Shown: positions 1 through 32,269, counted from the first letter of the stretch. The stretch: 32,745 bases of DNA from a virus (IMGVR_UViG_2531839479_000007); one strand, 5' to 3'. Numbers and translations are program-made. The notes: a model not told the origin generated them from the letters alone.

Positions 1-852
1 CTAGGATATCTTTCCATGACATTCTTTGAAGCGTTTTCCACTCCCGCAATGACATAAGGCATTTCTTGACATAGATTGTGGTGGACTCAAGTCAATTTCG
101 CTAAGCATCGAAAGTAATTCCTCTGCTGCAATTGCTTCTCCAATCATAACTTGAGTTAGACTTCTCATATGAATCAATAATTCTGCTACAATTTGAGATT
201 CTACAAAACTTTTAGTTTCTCCAGCGTCATTAGTAGCGGTATAGGTGACGCCACTCATATTTTCAGACAAAGCTTCAATAGCTGATTGATGGTATTGACT
301 GATAGGAGCATGCTTACTCACTACAATACCTATTACTTTATTATCTGAAGCTTTTAAAAGAGCTCCACCAGAATTTCCTGAGTTAAATGCCCCATTTACC
401 ACTAGATGTTTTTTTTGTCCCTTGGCGGTTTGGTATGAGTTAAATCCTGCTAGATAACCAACGGATAGTAACGGTGCAGGACCGTTGTATCCTAATGGGT
501 ATCCCCAAGTTGTTACTGATTCACCAACTTTAAGATCATTATCCTTAACAATACTTAGCCCACCAGTCTGGGTAATGGCAGGTCTCAGCACAGCTAAATC
601 GCGATCAGAATCTATCCATTTTTGAGAAATTGGAATCTTCTGTCCATAAGCTGAAATTGCGAAAATCTGATTTGTAGAGCATCCAGTGATAACATGCTCG
701 TTCGTTACTATTAACCCATTATCTATTAAAAAACCAGATCCTTTCGAGCCTGTCGCAGGACATATAATCATATAAACAGAATTTACTGATGAGCGTCCAA
801 CTTCACCCGTAGCGTCTAAAGTCCATTGAGTAGATATGGGGATATTGTTCAA
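1..852 (-). CDS. Trypsin-like (S1 family) serine protease with C-terminal SEC-C metal-binding motif; flanking gene outside the prophage
   Basis: 283-aa ORF; His/Asp/Ser triad contexts TNEHV, DLAVL, GNSGGAL; C-terminal CHCGSGKRFKECHGK matches the SEC-C motif; TTG start at 850-852 with AAGGAG 8 nt upstream; TAG stop at 1-3; visibly AT-rich. Confidence 0.6.
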   Translation of the reverse strand: MNNIPISTQWTLDATGEVGRSSVNSVYMIICPATGSKGSGFLIDNGLIVTNEHVITGCSTNQIFAISAYGQKIPISQKWIDSDRDLAVLRPAITQTGGLSIVKDNDLKVGESVTTWGYPLGYNGPAPLLSVGYLAGFNSYQTAKGQKKHLVVNGAFNSGNSGGALLKASDNKVIGIVVSKHAPISQYHQSAIEALSENMSGVTYTATNDAGETKSFVESQIVAELLIHMRSLTQVMIGEAIAAEELLSMLSEIDLSPPQSMSRNALCHCGSGKRFKECHGKIS

Positions 853-13045: not shown

Positions 13046-14032
13046 TTATGGATTTGACTTCCCTGAAGTCTCTTTTTTTATTTCAAATTTCCCACCCTTG
13101 AACATGATATTCGAATCTTTGATTCCATACAAAAGCATTTCATAAGGATGGTTAATTTTTTGTTCTTTTGTAGCGATACTGGAATTCATCAATTGCAACA
13201 AAGCCACATGATGTTCACTCGCCCCTAACTCTACCATTTTGGTAGCCATGTTGCTTATCTGTTCTCGTTTTAAAAAATCTTCCCGGAGAGAAAGTAACGT
13301 TAAACTTCGTGCGTTACAAAACTTTATCATGTAAACAACAAACGCACCTAACCCAATATAGGAAAACGATAATGCTAAATAAATAGACGGTGTGGTTATT
13401 ATGTTTTGCCCAAATATAAGAAAACCCAGCAGGCCAAAAAAATAAAAAACATTCACCAAAATAAACATGTTACTCATCAGAGCCTTTGTACTTCGAGTTG
13501 CATCATATTCTTTCTCCAGATGCTCCAAAAATGATGATATTTTTATTAAATTTAACTTTTCAATTGTTTCCTTCTCTAAAATCTTGAATTGCTCACTCTC
13601 TCTAATTAATTTTTTGGTAGTGTCCTCCACTGTATCATGCAATGATTCAGTGATCGCCTCTTCAATTTTATTTTCAGAAAACACGCTTGTTAAAGCGTAA
13701 TTGGCTAATTCCTTTTGTCTTTTCTCGATTAAACTTTCGACATTTTCTCTGTACGCATCAAAATATTTTTGACCACTCTCGTTTAGCAATATTTTACGAA
13801 TATGAAATTTTATTTTCTCATCTGCCATTGGTTGGCTTTCAGTGTTACCATTCTTCTTTGTGTTATTATCTTTAGTTTCCGCATTATACCTGTCCTTGCC
13901 TGAATCAAGTAAGTTCCGTGAAATGAATTTCACCACAGGACCACGCAGAATAGCTATAGCTATTGCCATTGCAAGAATGAATGGTGAAGCATCAATAAAT
14001 GATCGCGCAAATACGAAAGAGATTTCACTCAT
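13046..14032 (-). CDS. AT-rich moron: predicted membrane protein of unknown function (N-terminal TM helix, charged central region, two further TM helices, soluble C-terminal domain)
   Basis: Start set at ATG 14030-14032 (AGGGA 8 nt upstream); hydrophobic stretches SPFILAMAIAIAIL, MFILVNVFYFFGLLGFLIFG, IYLALSFSYIGLGAFVVYMIKF; sharp drop in GC relative to V and S on either side. Confidence 0.6.
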   Translation of the reverse strand: MSEISFVFARSFIDASPFILAMAIAIAILRGPVVKFISRNLLDSGKDRYNAETKDNNTKKNGNTESQPMADEKIKFHIRKILLNESGQKYFDAYRENVESLIEKRQKELANYALTSVFSENKIEEAITESLHDTVEDTTKKLIRESEQFKILEKETIEKLNLIKISSFLEHLEKEYDATRSTKALMSNMFILVNVFYFFGLLGFLIFGQNIITTPSIYLALSFSYIGLGAFVVYMIKFCNARSLTLLSLREDFLKREQISNMATKMVELGASEHHVALLQLMNSSIATKEQKINHPYEMLLYGIKDSNIMFKGGKFEIKKETSGKSNP

Positions 14033-14786: not shown

Positions 14787-15246
14787 CCCATTTGCTCACC
14801 AGTTCGCCATTGATATACAGCTCAGTCGGTCGCGTCACCGGCTCGGGTAATGGTGGCTCAGGTGCATAGCTGACATGCAGCGCCCCGTTTTCATCCCTGA
14901 CGAGGGTGCGCTCGGTAAGCTGCAGGCTGATACTGATATCAACATTATCCCCGTCATTTAAATCCATCTGGAATCGATAACCCTTTTTGCGCCCCTCATC
15001 CAGCGTGCAGATGTCCGGCTGGTTCTCACGCAGCCACGCGGCTACCGGCACGAAAATCAGGTCAGGGTCGCCGACAAAATCGCAGACAATCACATTCAGG
15101 GTGTAATTCTTTTCATGAGACAGCGAGGCCGCAAGACGCGCATCGATATTCCCCTCATCGGCAAAGATACGCATCATTTCGGGATTGTTTTTTAACTGCG
15201 GTACAGCGTCAGTAAGCGCCTGGCGCAGGCTTTTCATTTTCTGCAT
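14779..15246 (-). CDS. R: Tail completion protein R
   Basis: 155 aa, same length as P2 gpR; AGGA RBS upstream of ATG at 15244-15246. Confidence 0.9.
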   Translation of the reverse strand: MQKMKSLRQALTDAVPQLKNNPEMMRIFADEGNIDARLAASLSHEKNYTLNVIVCDFVGDPDLIFVPVAAWLRENQPDICTLDEGRKKGYRFQMDLNDGDNVDISISLQLTERTLVRDENGALHVSYAPEPPLPEPVTRPTELYINGELVSKWDE

Positions 15247-15499
15247 CGATTTTATCCTGACAGTCTTTGATGGTTTCGACCTTTATCGCGCAGGCGGTGA
15301 GCGCGTGCTCAAGCCTGCGAATATCGGCACTCAGGTCGCCGTTAGTTGTGGGCTCGCTTCCCGGCATCGGGCAGAGGCTCACCTTCTGGCAGGCGTTGTA
15401 AACAATGACCGGCGGAGGCGCAGCCGGTGCGGGTGTGCAACCGGCGCACAGCATCAGGCAAGTCAGCGCTATACCAGCGGCGCAAATCCTCGTTTTCAT
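15209..15499 (-). CDS. lysC: LysC, o-spanin (Rz1-like outer-membrane lipoprotein) nested out of frame in lysB and overlapping R
   Basis: 96 aa; signal peptide plus lipobox LCAGC; proline-rich mature part (TPAPAAPPPV); starts inside lysB in another frame and ends inside R. Confidence 0.75.
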   Translation of the reverse strand: MKTRICAAGIALTCLMLCAGCTPAPAAPPPVIVYNACQKVSLCPMPGSEPTTNGDLSADIRRLEHALTACAIKVETIKDCQDKIDAENEKPAPGAY

Positions 15500-15767
15500 T
15501 CAGCAGCCTCGTTATGGTTTGTTCACGTCTTACCGCCAGCTCTCCGGCGGCGTTCAGCTCGTCGCTGAGCCTGACCTGCGCGGCTTCATTCGTCCTGGCG
15601 ATGCGCTGCGATACGGCAAACTGATTTTTCAGCATACCAATCGTCGTCTTTTGCTCATTGGCGACCCGGTTCGCCTTTTCAAAGGAGCGGGATAAATTCG
15701 CGTTATCGTGGCGCAGCCACAGCACCACGGCGAGCAGCCCGGCCAGCAGAATAATCAGCACTTTCAT
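15342..15767 (-). CDS. lysB: LysB, i-spanin (Rz-like)
   Basis: Start set at MKVLIILLAGLLAVVLWL (ATG 15765-15767); 141 aa as P2 LysB; N-terminal TM helix plus coiled-coil-like periplasmic part; ATGA overlap with the endolysin stop. Confidence 0.85.
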   Translation of the reverse strand: MKVLIILLAGLLAVVLWLRHDNANLSRSFEKANRVANEQKTTIGMLKNQFAVSQRIARTNEAAQVRLSDELNAAGELAVRREQTITRLLNENEDLRRWYSADLPDAVRRLHTRTGCASAGHCLQRLPEGEPLPDAGKRAHN

Positions 15768-16273
15768 TGCATCCCCTTCACGCAGTAAGCCCACTCCCGA
15801 TCGCGTCGGTTTTCCAGCCCCCGGTTTCGGACACCATTCACGTACACCCAGCGGGTGAGCTGGTCGCACGCCTGCCACCACTGATGACGCTTTATATACG
15901 AGACCAGCGTCGAACGGCAGGCAGCGCCCGTTCCCACGTTAAAGGCAAAACTGACCAGCGTGTCATAGACGCGCGGTGGCATATCCACCGGCACACAGAC
16001 CGCGAGCCGTTGCTCGACGTTGAGCACATCGGCAATGAGATTCTCCGCCGCGCGCTGTTCGGTAATATCCCCTTTCAGGACCACCCCGGCAGTGTGGCCG
16101 ATGCCCGACGTCCACACTCCCGCGCTGCACTGGTAAGGTGTCAGGCGACATCCTTCGAGGTCGGCAATCAGTGCCAGCCCCTCGGGCGAGGTGTTAAGCA
16201 GACGAAAATCAGGCACCAGTGCCGCCAGCGCCAGCACGGCGGCCACACTGCAGCGTTTAATGATTGAGCTCAC
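15764..16273 (-). CDS. SAR (signal-anchor-release) endolysin, lysozyme family, from internal GTG start
   Basis: From GTG at 16271-16273 (AAGGGG 6 nt upstream): N-terminal SAR-like IIKRCSVAAVLALAALV then ...LEGCRLTPYQCSAGVWTSGIGHT..., resembling phage 21 R-type SAR endolysins. Confidence 0.65.
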   Translation of the reverse strand: MSSIIKRCSVAAVLALAALVPDFRLLNTSPEGLALIADLEGCRLTPYQCSAGVWTSGIGHTAGVVLKGDITEQRAAENLIADVLNVEQRLAVCVPVDMPPRVYDTLVSFAFNVGTGAACRSTLVSYIKRHQWWQACDQLTRWVYVNGVRNRGLENRRDREWAYCVKGMQ

Positions 16274-16477
16274 GGGCAGCCCCTTATCGGGTCCAAGTGA
16301 GGTCAGGTAGCGGTAGGTTTTACGCTTAAACCAGTAATTCGTCAGCGCGGTAAAAATGGCGCAGGCACTCCCCACATAGAGCGCCAGCTTTTCGGGGGAC
16401 ATAGCCCCGAAATACGCCAGCCCCACGGCCAGCCAGTAAGCGAAAAACGTCGTGATTTTTTCCACACTCAGTCCCAT
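15764..16477 (-). CDS. Full 237-aa reading frame: phage-21-type pinholin-like N-terminal domain continuing in frame into the SAR endolysin (no stop between them)
   Basis: ATG at 16475-16477 overlapping the end of X; two TM helices and ...FTALTNYWFKRKTYRY resembling S21 pinholin; the frame runs uninterrupted into the endolysin. Confidence 0.5.
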   Translation of the reverse strand: MGLSVEKITTFFAYWLAVGLAYFGAMSPEKLALYVGSACAIFTALTNYWFKRKTYRYLTSLGPDKGLPVSSIIKRCSVAAVLALAALVPDFRLLNTSPEGLALIADLEGCRLTPYQCSAGVWTSGIGHTAGVVLKGDITEQRAAENLIADVLNVEQRLAVCVPVDMPPRVYDTLVSFAFNVGTGAACRSTLVSYIKRHQWWQACDQLTRWVYVNGVRNRGLENRRDREWAYCVKGMQ

Positions 16478-16671
16478 AAATTCACCGTTTCAGTTTTCGG
16501 GGCGCTGTCGGTTTCGGGCAGTTCTATTGTCGTGCCGTGCGGCAGAATAACGCCCAGCTCCGACAGCCCCGGATTCGCCCACAGCACCGTTTCAACGACG
16601 CCCTCAGTGCGCCCGTAATACCGGGCGCAAATCACATCAAGGGTGTCACCCTGCATCGCATAAACCTTCAT
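16468..16671 (-). CDS. X: Tail protein X (LysM-like)
   Basis: Start set at MKVYAMQGDTLDVICARYYGRTEGVVETVL (ATG 16669-16671, ATGA overlap with L stop); 67 aa as P2 gpX. Confidence 0.85.
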   Translation of the reverse strand: MKVYAMQGDTLDVICARYYGRTEGVVETVLWANPGLSELGVILPHGTTIELPETDSAPKTETVNLWD

Positions 16672-23058: not shown

Positions 23059-24171
23059 TTAACCAACCCTTGCTTTTTTATATGGACCACAACTCCAACT
23101 AAAGAAATTCTTACCTAACTTATACCATTTATCAGAAAGCACTGGTGTTAGGTGAGGATTATATTTTTTTAAACTTCCCTTTTGTATATATTTCAATGTA
23201 TTGCTGAGCAAATTCTCTCCAAAACCATCATAACTTACACAAGCAGCGTTGCAGCTACAACGTTTTGATTCGATATACTCACAATCATATTTTATATCAA
23301 GCTTCTTTAATATCGGACGCCAATATGCACCATGTTTTCGATCGAGTTCAAGGGCTGTTTTAAAATCAAAACCTTTTTTATGGTCAATATAAAATTTTAC
23401 TGATTCATCTACGGAGCAAAGATGCTTAAAGAAAATGAGAGATTTTTCTTTTTGTTGCAATTGACTTTGACTTCTTAATACATCTTCAATTGTCGATAAA
23501 GGAACTAGAGATTCTATTTCATGTACATCTAAAATCTCCACGAAACCTGAGCGAGTAATTTGTGAGCCCAAAAAATGTGAGCAAGTACCTCCGAATGGGG
23601 CTCCAGGATGTTTTTTGTCATTATCCACAATACAAAAAACTATCTCATTATTTTGAATTGCACGCTCGAATATATCCTTAGTACTGCCCCCACCGCCATT
23701 TAGAGCGATAAAACCCATTTCGCAGCGAGATAAGTTAATACCTTCGGCATAATGAGCCGCTATAACCTTAAAAAAATCAGAATCCAAAGGATTTTCACAT
23801 ACTATTTTCGTTTTTTGCAATTGTGCCGAGTCATTAAAATACAATGGACCACAAACAAATTTAAAAGATTCACCGATCTGAACCCATTTAAATGATTTAT
23901 CACTAATATTAAAGTCGACAGATACATAAAATGAGACCTGATCCAAGATAGCATAGTACTCTGTTAGACCCGACAAAGCCTCTTGCGCGTAACTTTTTGA
24001 TGAAAGGCTATAAAGCCCGCTTTGATCATTGATAATAGTTTTAAAAAAAACCCTTGCCCCTATAACCAAGTGTTTTTGTTCAGCGAATGCCCGAAGTATA
24101 TTTTCAACCGCTATGGCAAATGAGTTATTTAGCACCTTCTCAGGTGTCGCATTTTCGATATTAATCAACAT
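23059..24171 (-). CDS. Cargo gene 2: 370-aa partner protein of the ATPase, unknown function (possible Toprim-like E...DxD core; Cys-rich C-terminus)
   Basis: ATG at 24169-24171 only 2 nt after the ATPase TAG stop; AT-rich; ...RCEMGFIALNGGGGS...IVFCIVDNDKK... could be Toprim-like; C-terminal CEYIESKRCSCNAAC cluster. Confidence 0.6.
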   Translation of the reverse strand: MLINIENATPEKVLNNSFAIAVENILRAFAEQKHLVIGARVFFKTIINDQSGLYSLSSKSYAQEALSGLTEYYAILDQVSFYVSVDFNISDKSFKWVQIGESFKFVCGPLYFNDSAQLQKTKIVCENPLDSDFFKVIAAHYAEGINLSRCEMGFIALNGGGGSTKDIFERAIQNNEIVFCIVDNDKKHPGAPFGGTCSHFLGSQITRSGFVEILDVHEIESLVPLSTIEDVLRSQSQLQQKEKSLIFFKHLCSVDESVKFYIDHKKGFDFKTALELDRKHGAYWRPILKKLDIKYDCEYIESKRCSCNAACVSYDGFGENLLSNTLKYIQKGSLKKYNPHLTPVLSDKWYKLGKNFFSWSCGPYKKARVG

Positions 24172-24173
24172 AA

Positions 24174-25730
24174 CTACTTACCCGAGAAAAAGCCAACCGG
24201 CCAATTTTTTAGGAAACCATTCTCGTCAAAATAAGATTTCTTAACTATAGTCTGCTGCTTATCATCTTTTTCAAATACCAGTATTGAAATATCATCCTGT
24301 GAAAGACTTTCATTTTCCTCAATATATTCACCAAGTGCTTCAATCATGGTCTGGCTATGTGTCTCAAAAATTATCTTCAAATCTACATTATTTTCTTTTG
24401 CTTTAGTTACTACTTTTGCAAAAATACTTGCTAAATTATGCTGATATGACGGATGTAAATGCAATTCTGGCTGCTCAATGATAAATGTTATAGGTTTTCT
24501 AACCGTGGTAGCACGACGTTCTGTCTCAAGCCAAATGGCTGTAACTATCGGCAAAACCTGAGAATAACCAAACCCCATATCACTAACATTATAGTTCTCA
24601 CTATTTTCACCGGTGTTTATTAAAATTGCAAAGTGAGAGCCACTTTGTTCAACCTTGATAATGAAATCAAAATTTAACTTTGTCCAATCTTCAAATTTTG
24701 ATTTATCAGCCGGTCTTAATGAATTCAAAAGCATTGCAAGATTGGAACCAGTATGATCTATCTCATTAACCTGTAAATCTTGAAAACGATAAAATCTTTC
24801 TGATGTAGCACGCAGTGGAGCTATGTACTTTACATTTCTGAATGAATCTGACAAGGATGTATTTATTATATCTATAAGATTATTAATATTCCATCCAATT
24901 ATAAATGGATATAACTCATTCATTATTTCATCATGTTGAAATTCAAAGTTTCTACTAAAAACTTTTTGTTCCTTAAATAGAAAAGCAACTAATTTACTAG
25001 CGTACGCTTTGGGTATAAAGCCAATTCTTTTGAATGCCTCTGTCACTTGATTTATATCAGATTTAGTATGGAAATATTTCTTTATATATTTCGCCGCTGA
25101 ATCAATAAATGACAATTCTAACGCCCTGTCATGCCTAGAATGTCTCAAATAGAATGATGTGCTTGGAGGAGGACTGTCTTCCTTACCCTTCAAAATTAGA
25201 TTTGGTATGAACTGCCCAAGATTTTTAGCTATTATCCCATCACGCTCTATTGTTTTATCATCTGATTCAATGAGTAATTTAACATTACTACTCTCATCCA
25301 TTGAAATAAATATTGTTAAATCAGCCAATATAAGCTTAATCGTTTTCGTTTTTGTTTTTTTATCTTTAGAGTAAACAGTTAACTCTGCTTCAATATCTGT
25401 TGGTTGCTTTGCTAAATCAGTAGAACGATAATATGTATATCTTTGTGAAACCTCTGGCGGAATTGAGAGTGAAAAACTAAACGTAATTTCTTTTTTTTCA
25501 GAGTTTCGGGAAAGTACATCTGTAAAATCGCCAAAATCCACATATCTCCCATACCATAGTATTGGGCCAGTAGTATTTTCTTCTACAGATTGACGAAGTA
25601 AAGGAAATGTGCGCAATAGGGAACTTTTACCACTGCTGTTCTTACCAACAAATACTGTAATTGGTTTTAAATCAATAAACGTTTTGTTGACAAAGCTCCT
25701 GAAGTTTTGAAGACCTATACCCTTAATCAT
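24174..25730 (-). CDS. Cargo gene 1: ABC/OLD-family (AAA_15/AAA_21-like) ATPase without a C-terminal Toprim domain
   Basis: Start set at MIKGIGLQNFRSF (ATG 25728-25730, GGAG 6 nt upstream); Walker A GKNSSGKSS, Walker B/D-loop ITFIIEQPELHLHP, H-loop IIFETHS; ORF-track start at 25802 is TTG inside the cos-like sequence. Confidence 0.75.
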   Translation of the reverse strand: MIKGIGLQNFRSFVNKTFIDLKPITVFVGKNSSGKSSLLRTFPLLRQSVEENTTGPILWYGRYVDFGDFTDVLSRNSEKKEITFSFSLSIPPEVSQRYTYYRSTDLAKQPTDIEAELTVYSKDKKTKTKTIKLILADLTIFISMDESSNVKLLIESDDKTIERDGIIAKNLGQFIPNLILKGKEDSPPPSTSFYLRHSRHDRALELSFIDSAAKYIKKYFHTKSDINQVTEAFKRIGFIPKAYASKLVAFLFKEQKVFSRNFEFQHDEIMNELYPFIIGWNINNLIDIINTSLSDSFRNVKYIAPLRATSERFYRFQDLQVNEIDHTGSNLAMLLNSLRPADKSKFEDWTKLNFDFIIKVEQSGSHFAILINTGENSENYNVSDMGFGYSQVLPIVTAIWLETERRATTVRKPITFIIEQPELHLHPSYQHNLASIFAKVVTKAKENNVDLKIIFETHSQTMIEALGEYIEENESLSQDDISILVFEKDDKQQTIVKKSYFDENGFLKNWPVGFFSGK

Positions 25731-32246: not shown

Positions 32247-32269
32247 CCCTTACACGGGCTTATTTTTTT
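32247..32269. other. att core (right prophage junction), P2-type
   Basis: CCCTTACACGGGCTTATTTTTTT; reverse complement AAAAAAATAAGCCCGTGTAAGGG matches about 22 positions of the P2 27-bp core as I recall it; 85 bp downstream of int. Confidence 0.55.

What the first reader, a model, noticed from the sequence alone, without database searches (positions are those of the whole stretch)
15764..16477. Lysis cassette differs from P2: phage-21-type pinholin-like domain runs in frame into a SAR endolysin, with no stop codon between them
Seen: a single 237-aa frame begins right after X, where a holin is expected. Its first ~68 residues look like a two-TM pinholin and the rest is a SAR-type lysozyme. A GTG with AAGGGG RBS at 16271-16273 would give a separate 169-aa endolysin. 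P2-type Y, K and lysA are absent, while lysB/lysC are retained. Established: pinholins pair with SAR endolysins in lambdoid phage 21, normally as separate overlapping genes. Inference: a module swap plus a genuine fusion, a nested-start arrangement, or loss of the pinholin stop by mutation.
Basis: partly seen in the sequence, partly recalled or inferred. Interest (0 to 1): 0.55.

Follow-up and report, generated by a model that had tools for sequence, protein, structure and literature searches.

The report
Holin–endolysin fusion from one-base deletion
The 237-codon "holin fused to endolysin" reading frame is real, but it is an ordinary two-gene phage lysis cassette in which one E. coli lineage lost a single G from a run of five, so it is a recent frameshift mutation, not a new protein architecture.

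Summary
Window 15764-16477 (-) is one 237-aa ORF: a two-TM holin segment, then a SAR-type GH24 lysozyme, with an internal GTG (16273-16271) behind AAGGGG.

The cause is a single-base deletion. The window is a P2-like prophage at yegR/yegQ in E. coli. It is 99.95% identical over all 32,745 b to prophages in complete E. coli genomes. Those carry GATAAGGGGGCTGCCCGTG (G5); the window has G4. With G5 there is a separate 73-aa holin overlapping a 169-aa endolysin by 17 nt in another frame.

G5 was found in every other carrier of this junction allele that I examined:
- 41 of 41 complete E. coli genomes
- 9 viral contigs
- 4 metagenome contigs

G4 occurs only in near-identical sequences: three draft GenBank assemblies (six contigs carry the same endolysin allele) and independent read-level assemblies of three SRA runs. 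So it is probably a real inherited mutation, not an assembly artefact.

No full-length fused homologue exists among billions of proteins. The underlying cassette (HP1-type class II holin, P1-Lyz-type SAR endolysin, LysB/LysC) is known and common in Peduoviridae. Interest is low.

The parts
15764..16477 (-). Fused 237-aa ORF (about 26.2 kDa): holin codons 1-66, then Leu-Pro, then the complete SAR endolysin
   Evidence: The exact protein is UniParc UPI00039BF1EE and is encoded in Logan assemblies of SRR446896 and SRR446908.
16274..16477 (-). Holin-derived segment. Residues 1-66 are identical to the 73-aa holin WP_000524521.1 of near-identical prophages. The native C-terminal AARELNH is lost. TMD1 is at about aa 8-26 and TMD2 at about aa 30-50.
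   Evidence: PHROG 20 holin E 3e-19. Pfam HP1 holin 19.9 bits and P21 S 18.4 bits, both below cut-off. Hydropathy. Alignment.
16280..16283 (.). Site of the mutation: a G4 run on the coding (-) strand, C4 on +, where every other carrier examined has G5. It lies in holin codons 65-67 and in the Shine-Dalgarno sequence of the endolysin.
   Evidence: It is the only homopolymer of 5 or more within the 30-nt stretch in which a 1-nt deletion would fuse the frames.
16271..16273 (-). Conserved GTG start of the endolysin, 6 nt after the G run; now in frame with the holin
16257..16259 (-). Ancestral holin stop codon TAA (…CAT TAA), now out of frame
15764..16273 (-). SAR endolysin, 169 aa (about 18.7 kDa), GH24, P1-Lyz type. 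SAR-like N-terminus with Cys8. Motif E40-G-C42 … C49 … T55. Carries the lineage-specific substitution P66L.
   Evidence: Pfam PF00959 E 4e-36. Best solved relative is P1 Lyz 1XJT, E 3e-21, with the EGCR…C…GVWT motif aligned. Pro at position 66 in 117 of 120 homologues. Cys positions.
16468..16671 (-). Gene X (tail protein X, 67 aa) immediately upstream; its stop overlaps the holin ATG
15342..15767 (-). LysB (i-spanin, 141 aa). Its start overlaps the endolysin stop (ATGA). Carries lineage-specific T36A.
   Evidence: 59% identity to P2 LysB. TIGR03495 and PHROG 89. SNP effect.
15209..15499 (-). LysC (o-spanin lipoprotein), 96-aa ORF; PGAP calls an 81-aa version at 15209-15454
   Evidence: NCBIfam P2_Rz1 E 1e-35. 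Pfam LysC. Annotation.

Best explanation
The window is a P2-like (Peduoviridae) prophage integrated between yegR and yegQ of E. coli.

Its lysis cassette is the common HP1-type arrangement: a 73-aa two-TM class II holin whose last 17 nt overlap, in a different frame, the GTG start of a 169-aa P1-Lyz-type SAR endolysin, followed by LysB/LysC spanins.

In the lineage sampled here, one G was lost from a G5 run, most simply by replication slippage. That run forms holin codons 65-67 and also the endolysin's Shine-Dalgarno sequence.

Shown:
- The deletion moves the holin frame into the endolysin frame two codons before the GTG.
- It removes the holin's native seven C-terminal residues and its stop codon.
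- It creates the 237-aa ORF.

Inferred:
- Ribosomes starting at the holin ATG now make a three-TM chimera.
- The lysozyme domain of that chimera cannot be released from the membrane, because its SAR helix is tethered to holin TMD2.
- The free endolysin is still made from its own GTG, because the SD (UAAGGGG) and the 6-nt spacing after the run are preserved.
- No normal holin is made, so holin-triggered lysis is probably impaired or mistimed.

The allele is a recent, lineage-restricted and probably neutral or degenerative mutation of a resident prophage. It is not an evolved fusion.
For: (1) The whole window aligns to E. coli WP2-S18-ESBL-07 at 99.948% identity, with 15 substitutions and two 1-nt indels. 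One indel is in an intergenic T/A run (about 32263-32267). The other is the missing G at the holin/endolysin junction. A viral contig, L020, is 99.957% identical over 13.9 kb with this G as the only gap.

(2) G5 and two separate genes are seen in all other carriers: 9 viral contigs, 4 metagenome contigs, and four complete genomes examined in full. All 41 complete E. coli genomes holding this junction allele lack an exact G4 match; 36 of them match at 70/71, i.e. one gap. More distant phages (Midge, EtG, Yersinia and Klebsiella phages) also annotate a separate holin and SAR endolysin overlapping by 17 nt.

(3) The 120 best of 629 homologues are all 158-171 aa. No representative in 1.84 billion proteins spans the full fusion. 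The five that cross the junction are truncated ORFs ending in out-of-frame sequence.

(4) The deletion is present in independent data. The exact 237-aa protein is encoded on Logan read-level assemblies of three SRA runs, which are 100% identical to the window. G4 is in all three GenBank draft assemblies shown (APYC01, APYF01, APYB01); these leave the holin interval unannotated. Six contigs in all carry the same endolysin allele.

(5) There are signs of unconstrained change in this lineage. Of 11 window-private changes relative to four complete genomes, 7 are nonsynonymous, 3 are synonymous and 1 is the frameshift. Three fall in the 1.27-kb lysis cassette (expected 0.43; post hoc P = 0.008). 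One of these is P66L at a Pro kept in 117 of 120 endolysin homologues.

(6) Background from the literature: in the P2-like phage HP1, the homologous type of cassette is a pinholin overlapping a SAR endolysin. The endolysin lyses E. coli on its own, but deleting hol blocks phage release (PMC7312051).
Against: No reads were inspected directly. All G4 carriers have adjacent accession numbers and may come from one project, so a project-specific systematic error is not formally excluded. The three GenBank assemblies each carry a private A-to-C difference next to C runs, which suggests some base-call error in that data set. Every functional consequence (chimera made, tethered and inactive; free endolysin still made; holin function lost) is inferred from sequence and from established SAR-endolysin/pinholin biology, not measured. 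The clustering of private changes in the lysis genes is a post hoc observation on 11 events.
Confidence: 0.88

Rival explanations
1. Sequencing or assembly artefact: the strain really has G5 and two normal genes, and a homopolymer under-call produced the apparent fusion.
For: The difference is a 1-nt length change in a homopolymer. All carriers appear to come from one group of accessions (APYB/APYC/APYF; SRR446896/SRR446908). Those GenBank assemblies show private A-to-C differences that look like base-call errors.
Against: G4 appears in three separately deposited assemblies. It also appears in Logan contigs built independently from the raw reads of three runs, which are 100% identical to the window over 4.3-6.3 kb. 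It is the only coding indel in 32.7 kb, which does not fit a homopolymer-error-prone assembly. The errors that are seen are substitutions, not indels.
Confidence: 0.07
2. Genuine functional fusion or nested-start gene: the 237-aa holin-SAR-endolysin chimera and the internally initiated 169-aa endolysin are both used, and the arrangement is maintained by selection.
For: The topology is compatible. A class II holin with a cytoplasmic C-terminus can be followed by an N-in/C-out SAR helix that places the lysozyme in the periplasm (inference). The internal SD and GTG are intact. Natural holin-endolysin fusions have been reported for a TpeE-family holin in six Clostridium sporogenes genomes (PMC9527704).
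Against: The allele is absent from every diverged relative and from all 41 complete E. coli genomes with this junction allele. It differs from the two-gene state by one base, on a background of about 10 private SNPs per 32.7 kb, so there has been no time for selection to be visible. It is accompanied by a substitution at a nearly invariant endolysin residue. A P1-Lyz-type enzyme needs its SAR helix, with its Cys, to leave the membrane for activation (established for P1 Lyz). A tether to holin TMD2 would prevent that.
Confidence: 0.03
3. Slippage-based recoding or switch: the G run acts as a contingency tract, or allows -1 ribosomal slippage, so some normal holin is still produced.
For: On AAG GGG C, a -1 re-pairing of tRNA-Gly on G GGG would read GCU GCC CGU GAG CUC AAU CAU UAA. 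That regenerates exactly the wild-type tail AARELNH* (read directly from the sequence).
Against: Four or five G is short for a phase-variable tract. There is no canonical X XXY YYZ heptamer and no evident downstream stimulator. There is no evidence of G-length heterogeneity: all relatives are G5 and all members of this lineage are G4.
Confidence: 0.02

Closest known systems
Lysis cassette of Haemophilus phage HP1 (P2-like): pinholin Hol plus SAR endolysin Lys plus a LysB-like protein (PMC7312051)
   Same: A P2-like phage with a small two-TM class II holin. The window's best Pfam hit is the HP1 holin family, and NCBI names orthologues 'HP1 family phage holin'. The holin sits immediately upstream of, and overlaps, a SAR lysozyme related to P1 Lyz, followed by a LysB-like gene.
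   Different: The window's holin scores below the Pfam cut-off (19.9 bits against 28.8). The overlap in its relatives is 17 nt, not 7 nt. In the window the two genes are joined by a frameshift. Pinholin behaviour has not been tested for this enterobacterial holin.
Holin / SAR-endolysin pairs annotated in enterobacterial Peduoviridae (Escherichia phage Midge, Erwinia phage EtG, Yersinia phage vB_YpM_MDG94-186, Klebsiella phage RCIP0057) and in E. coli prophages such as that of strain WP2-S18-ESBL-07
   Same: Same gene order (L, X, holin, SAR endolysin, [LysA], LysB, LysC, R, S). DNA identity is 77-83% to the phages and 99.95% to the E. coli prophages. The endolysin has the same GTG start.
   Different: They have two separate overlapping genes (73 aa and 169/170 aa). 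The window lacks one G and has one 237-aa ORF. Midge, EtG and L057 additionally carry a LysA-like gene that the window and the Yersinia phages lack.
Phage 21 S21 pinholin with R21 SAR endolysin
   Same: A two-TM class II holin paired with a SAR GH24 lysozyme. There is weak similarity over TMD2 (…TALTNYWFKRK; Pfam PF04971 E 2e-3). R21 (3HDE) is a clear endolysin homologue (E 1e-19).
   Different: The P21 S profile is below its cut-off and aligns over only about 22 residues. The endolysin has the Cys-containing E-x-C…C…T motif of P1 Lyz; R21 has an Asp at the corresponding position, which I state from prior knowledge and from reading the alignment. The phage background is lambdoid, not P2-like.
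Phage P1 Lyz (PDB 1XJT/1XJU), a SAR endolysin activated by disulfide isomerisation
   Same: Best solved relative (E 3e-21). The aligned motif EGCR…C…GVWT gives E40, C42, C49 and T55, plus a Cys in the SAR helix (Cys8).
   Different: Identity is only moderate. The SAR Cys is not in the same column as P1 Cys13. The activation mechanism is inferred, not tested.
Natural translational holin-endolysin fusion in Clostridium sporogenes (TpeE-family holin, WP_163247266.1; PMC9527704)
   Same: A holin ORF reads directly into its endolysin, and it is found in a handful of related genomes.
   Different: The holin family, endolysin and host are unrelated. In the window the fusion is demonstrably a one-base deletion of a two-gene cassette, and the endolysin keeps its own start.

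Membership tests
HP1-family class II holin (Pfam PF16080, TCDB 1.E.7) | Profile match at or above the curated cut-off | tested here: not met
   19.9 bits against a cut-off of 28.8 for the window segment, and 19.6 for the intact 73-aa allele. Phage orthologues score 27.8-28.0, just below cut-off. NCBIfam has no hit. PHROG 20 'holin' is matched strongly (E 3e-19), and NCBI names orthologues 'HP1 family phage holin'.
HP1-family class II holin (Pfam PF16080, TCDB 1.E.7) | Small protein (about 70-80 aa) with two hydrophobic helices and a charged C-terminal tail | tested here: met
   Hydropathy peaks at aa 8-26 and 30-50, followed by KRKTYRY…. The ancestral length is 73 aa.
HP1-family class II holin (Pfam PF16080, TCDB 1.E.7) | Gene lies directly upstream of, and overlaps, a SAR endolysin gene in a late operon of a P2-like phage | tested here: met
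   Met in all relatives. In the window the overlap has become an in-frame junction.
Pinholin (functional class) | Forms small, non-protein-permeable lesions that depolarise the membrane; TMD1 leaves the bilayer | not testable with these tools
   Only an inference from pairing with a SAR endolysin and from the HP1 experiments (PMC7312051). TMD1 is only moderately rich in Gly/Ala/Thr (8 of 19 residues; my count on the sequence).
Phage 21 S21 holin family (Pfam PF04971) | Profile match at or above the curated cut-off | tested here: not met
   18.4 bits against a cut-off of 26. Only residues 35-56 (TMD2) align.
Phage 21 S21 holin family (Pfam PF04971) | Dual-start motif giving a holin and an antiholin | tested here: inconclusive
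   The window has M1-G-L-S-V5 (GTG) and more distant relatives have M1-G-L-S-M5. No extra charged residue distinguishes the two possible products. Start usage is not testable here.
SAR endolysin, GH24 (P1 Lyz / R21 type) | Phage_lysozyme (GH24) catalytic domain | tested here: met
   PF00959 E 4e-36. P1 Lyz E 3e-21 and R21 E 1e-19.
SAR endolysin, GH24 (P1 Lyz / R21 type) | N-terminal weakly hydrophobic, uncleaved signal-anchor helix rich in Ala/Gly/Ser/Leu | tested here: met
   VSSIIKRCSVAAVLALAALVPD gives a hydropathy peak at fusion residues about 70-88. It aligns to the SAR region of full-length P1 Lyz 1XJT.
SAR endolysin, GH24 (P1 Lyz / R21 type) | Catalytic motif E-8aa-(D/C)-5aa-T, with regulatory Cys residues for the P1 type | tested here: met
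   E40, C42, C49 and T55 align with the P1 Lyz EGCR…C…GVWT motif; Cys8 is in the SAR helix. These positions are conserved in 107-120 of 120 homologues where checked.
SAR endolysin, GH24 (P1 Lyz / R21 type) | Sec-dependent insertion and holin-triggered release from the membrane | not testable with these tools
   Requires experiment.
Evolved translational holin-endolysin fusion protein | Fused frame conserved across diverged homologues | tested here: not met
   There are 0 full-length fused homologues among 629 hits (best 120 listed, all 158-171 aa) and among representatives of 1.84 billion proteins. There are 0 of 41 complete E. coli genomes, 0 of 9 viral contigs and 0 of 4 metagenome contigs with the fused frame.

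The most novel reading that the evidence does not exclude
The most novel reading not excluded: the G4 allele is expressed as a 26-kDa three-TM holin-SAR-endolysin chimera that alters lysis control. It might act as a membrane-tethered dominant-negative (antiholin-like) partner of the pinholin/endolysin system. Alternatively, low-level -1 slippage on the G run might supply a trickle of normal holin, giving a delayed-lysis or lysis-silenced prophage that is favoured in this E. coli clone.
Probability: 0.05. Interest if true: 0.4.

Novelty: already known. Interest (0 to 1): 0.1.

Why it matters
As biology it matters little. It is one more example of a resident prophage picking up a disabling or neutral mutation in a lysis gene.

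It has some practical value:
- It shows how out-of-frame overlapping holin/endolysin genes turn into an apparent 'fusion protein' after a single indel. Fusions seen in only a few closely related genomes should therefore be checked against near-identical relatives before being read as architecture.
- The fused ORF has bridged 73-aa holins and 169-aa lysozymes into one 90%-identity protein cluster. That can propagate wrong names; some of those holins are called 'primosomal protein'.
- The G4 and G5 lysogens form a natural isogenic pair. They could be used to test how much this HP1-type holin contributes to lysis by a P1-Lyz-type SAR endolysin in E. coli.

Tried and rejected
- An alignment to 77%-identical phages placed the missing base at GTG-A-CCC. 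Closer relatives showed this was misleading and that the real event is G5 to G4.
- The exact-pattern scan of one-genome-per-species genome contigs found nothing. The species representative does not carry this allele, so it gave no host title. The host was identified from E. coli genomes instead.
- NCBIfam gave no holin family for either the fused segment or the intact holin.
- A paper search for the assembly and run accessions (APYB/APYC/APYF, SRR446896) found nothing, so the strains and sequencing platform remain unidentified.
- The representative search turned up five proteins crossing the junction (P0162, P0168, P0178, P0179, P0185). On inspection they are truncated ORFs ending in out-of-frame sequence, so they are sporadic frameshifts or errors and not a conserved fusion.
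- I considered an origin by recombination or module swap at the junction. I rejected it because flanking sequence on both sides is 99.95% identical to G5 prophages.
- I considered G4 being ancestral. I rejected it because all diverged relatives (90-96% and 77%) have separate genes.
- Structure prediction was not run, because it would not bear on the question.

Full report
**Observation**

Window 15764-16477 on the minus strand is a single 237-codon ATG ORF. Its ATG overlaps the end of gene X (Phage_tail_X).

- Residues 106-228 match Pfam Phage_lysozyme (E 1e-35).
- Residues 1-62 match PHROG 20 'holin' (E 3e-19).
- The two class II holin Pfam families are hit only below their cut-offs: HP1 family 19.9 bits against 28.8, and P21 S 18.4 bits against 26.
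- Hydropathy shows two helices in the first 50 residues and a third at residues about 70-88.
- The GTG at 16273-16271 behind AAGGGG is present.

**What the surroundings are**

The whole window is a P2-like prophage sitting between yegR and yegQ of E. coli. It aligns end to end with the chromosome of E. coli WP2-S18-ESBL-07 at 99.948% identity. Near-identical copies occur in strains SFE8, GPEC1222 and GXU-23-25-310.

In all of these, PGAP annotates two genes after X:
- a 73-aa 'phage holin family protein' (WP_000524521.1)
- a 169-aa 'lysozyme' whose GTG start lies 17 nt before the holin stop, in another frame

These are followed by lysB and lysC. More distant phages (Escherichia phage Midge, Erwinia phage EtG, Yersinia and Klebsiella phages, 77-83% DNA identity) have the same two overlapping genes, annotated 'holin class II' / 'HP1 family holin' and 'SAR endolysin' / 'lysozyme R'.

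**The cause of the fusion**

Alignment with the closest relatives shows that they read GATAAGGGGGCTGCCCGTGAGC and the window reads GATAAGGGGCTGCCCGTGAGC. One G of a G5 run is missing; on the plus strand this is the C run at 16280-16283.

In the G5 state the holin ends …GPDKGAARELNH-TAA, while the endolysin starts at the GTG inside CCC GTG AGC. In the G4 state the holin frame becomes …GPDKG-L-P-V-S-S…, which is the endolysin frame, entered two codons before its start. The old TAA (16259-16257) is now out of frame.

Across 32.7 kb the window differs from WP2-S18-ESBL-07 by 15 substitutions and two single-base indels. The second indel is in an intergenic T/A run near the attachment end. A viral contig, L020, is 99.957% identical over 13.9 kb with this G as its only gap.

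The G5 run is the only homopolymer of five or more inside the 30-nt interval in which a 1-nt deletion would fuse the frames. That fits simple replication slippage.

**How widespread the fused allele is**

It is not widespread.
- The 120 best of 629 homologues in the 5.8-billion-protein set are all 158-171 aa.
- A full HMMER scan of 1.84 billion cluster representatives found no full-length fused protein. The five hits that cross the junction are truncated ORFs ending in out-of-frame sequence.
- A degenerate junction pattern found 51 viral contigs. Nine share the window's allele family and all nine are G5.
- Four metagenome contigs are all G5.
- A 70-nt junction query found 41 complete E. coli genomes and none was an exact match. 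Thirty-six match at 70/71, i.e. with the extra G.

**Is the deletion real?**

The exact 237-aa protein exists in UniParc (UPI00039BF1EE). It is encoded on Logan contigs assembled independently from the raw reads of three SRA runs, including SRR446896 and SRR446908. Those contigs are 100% identical to the window.

The window's 169-aa endolysin (WP_024203075.1) occurs on six GenBank contigs. The three shown (APYC01, APYF01, APYB01) all have G4, and no holin is annotated in the interval.

The allele is therefore reproducible at read level and shared by several near-identical assemblies, which points to an inherited mutation. There are two caveats. These data seem to come from one project. And each GenBank assembly has one private A-to-C difference next to a C run, so some base-call error exists there. 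I put the artefact explanation at about 7%.

**Context of the mutation**

Relative to four complete genomes, the window has 11 private changes: 7 nonsynonymous, 3 synonymous and the frameshift. That ratio is expected without purifying selection.

Three of the 11 lie in the 1.27-kb lysis cassette (expected 0.43; post hoc binomial P = 0.008):
- the holin frameshift
- LysB T36A
- endolysin P66L, at a position that is Pro in 117 of 120 homologues and in P1 Lyz

This is consistent with a resident prophage drifting, perhaps with lysis function relaxed. The sample is small and the test was chosen after seeing the data.

**Likely mechanism**

Shown: the holin loses its seven native C-terminal residues and its stop. 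The endolysin ORF, its GTG, and a UAAGGGG Shine-Dalgarno with unchanged spacing after the run all remain.

Inferred from established SAR-endolysin and pinholin biology:
- Ribosomes starting at the holin ATG make a 26.2-kDa protein with holin TMD1-TMD2, an approximately 20-residue cytoplasmic linker, the SAR helix and a periplasmic lysozyme domain.
- The SAR helix is tethered to TMD2, so it could not leave the bilayer. For a P1-Lyz-type enzyme, activation needs the SAR Cys to reach the periplasm. The enzyme here has E40, C42, C49 and T55 plus Cys8 in the SAR helix, so the chimera should be inactive as a lysin.
- The 18.7-kDa endolysin should still be initiated at the GTG, possibly less efficiently because elongating ribosomes now traverse the site.
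- No normal holin is made, unless rare -1 slippage on G GGG restores the AARELNH tail, which the sequence would allow.

In phage HP1, the characterised P2-like phage with this type of cassette, the SAR endolysin lyses E. coli by itself but deleting hol blocks phage release (PMC7312051). The expected phenotype here is therefore delayed or defective lysis on induction.

**Comparison with known systems**

Relative to P2, the holin and endolysin are indeed different proteins: there is no BLASTP similarity to Y or K, and there is no lysA. LysB is 59% identical to P2 LysB and LysC matches P2_Rz1. This 'swap' is the standard cassette of a large branch of Peduoviridae. It is present in 182 of 5,426 complete E. 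coli genomes, and its HP1 counterpart has been characterised experimentally.

'Phage-21-type' is imprecise. The holin is nearer to the HP1 family than to S21, though below both Pfam thresholds. The endolysin is nearest to P1 Lyz (1XJT, E 3e-21), with R21 next.

A natural holin-endolysin fusion has been reported in Clostridium sporogenes (PMC9527704). It involves unrelated proteins. The present case shows how easily such fusions arise by a single indel in overlapping genes.

**Verdict**

The feature is an ordinary, already-known lysis cassette carrying a lineage-specific one-base deletion. Interest is low (0.1).

The most novel reading still open is that the chimera or the G run has a regulatory role in lysis. 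I put its probability at about 0.05.

Noticed in passing
window 23059-25730 (-): Cargo genes at the P2 'old/tin'-type variable spot between the replication genes and the portal gene. The first is a 518-aa AAA_15/AAA_21/DUF3696 ATPase (PADLOC NsnB 4e-55, PDC-M55A 7e-46, AriA 3e-31). The second is a 370-aa partner with only a weak PDC-M55B hit (2e-4) and no Pfam domain. This is probably a two-gene anti-phage defence candidate.
   Followed up: partly
window 13046-14032 (-): A 328-aa ORF between tail genes S and V, which is the second variable spot of P2-like phages. It has no Pfam or PADLOC match.
   Followed up: partly
window 1-852 (-): A 283-aa trypsin-like peptidase with a C-terminal SEC-C motif, just beyond ogr at the prophage end. 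Its protease domain resembles that of PADLOC RT-Protease_XI (7e-21), but there is no reverse transcriptase.
   Followed up: partly
window 16077 (endolysin codon 66) and 15662 (LysB codon 36): Two lineage-private nonsynonymous changes sit next to the frameshift. P66L is at a Pro conserved in 117 of 120 homologues and in P1 Lyz. The other is T36A in LysB. Three of the 11 private changes in 32.7 kb fall in the 1.27-kb lysis cassette (post hoc P = 0.008).
   Followed up: yes
window 16465-16477 (-), holin codons 1-5: Possible dual-start motif: M1-G-L-S-V5 (GTG) here, and M1-G-L-S-M5 in the Yersinia, Klebsiella and Erwinia phages and in Midge. Midge annotates the holin from Met5 (69 aa). Whether two products are made is unknown.
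   Followed up: no
L066 2926, L067 2340, L068 167 (window 14848, 15434, 17607): Each of three GenBank draft assemblies of the G4 lineage has one private A-to-C difference from the window, directly before a C or C run. This looks like base-call or consensus error rather than real variation.
   Followed up: partly
protein cluster of P0121: The 90%-identity cluster holding the fused protein mixes 73-aa holins with 169-aa lysozymes, apparently bridged by the fused ORF. Several of the holins are named 'primosomal protein' in NCBI and UniRef, which is probably a propagated misannotation.
   Followed up: no
window about 32263-32267 (intergenic, between yegR and the integrase gene): This is the only other indel relative to near-identical prophages: a one-base length difference in a T/A homopolymer near the attachment site. 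It is shared with strain GPEC1222, so it is polymorphic.
   Followed up: partly
L071 32078-33240 (E. coli GXU-23-25-310): In another carrier of the same prophage, the late control gene D is annotated as frameshifted. This is a separate example of single-base decay in this prophage family.
   Followed up: no
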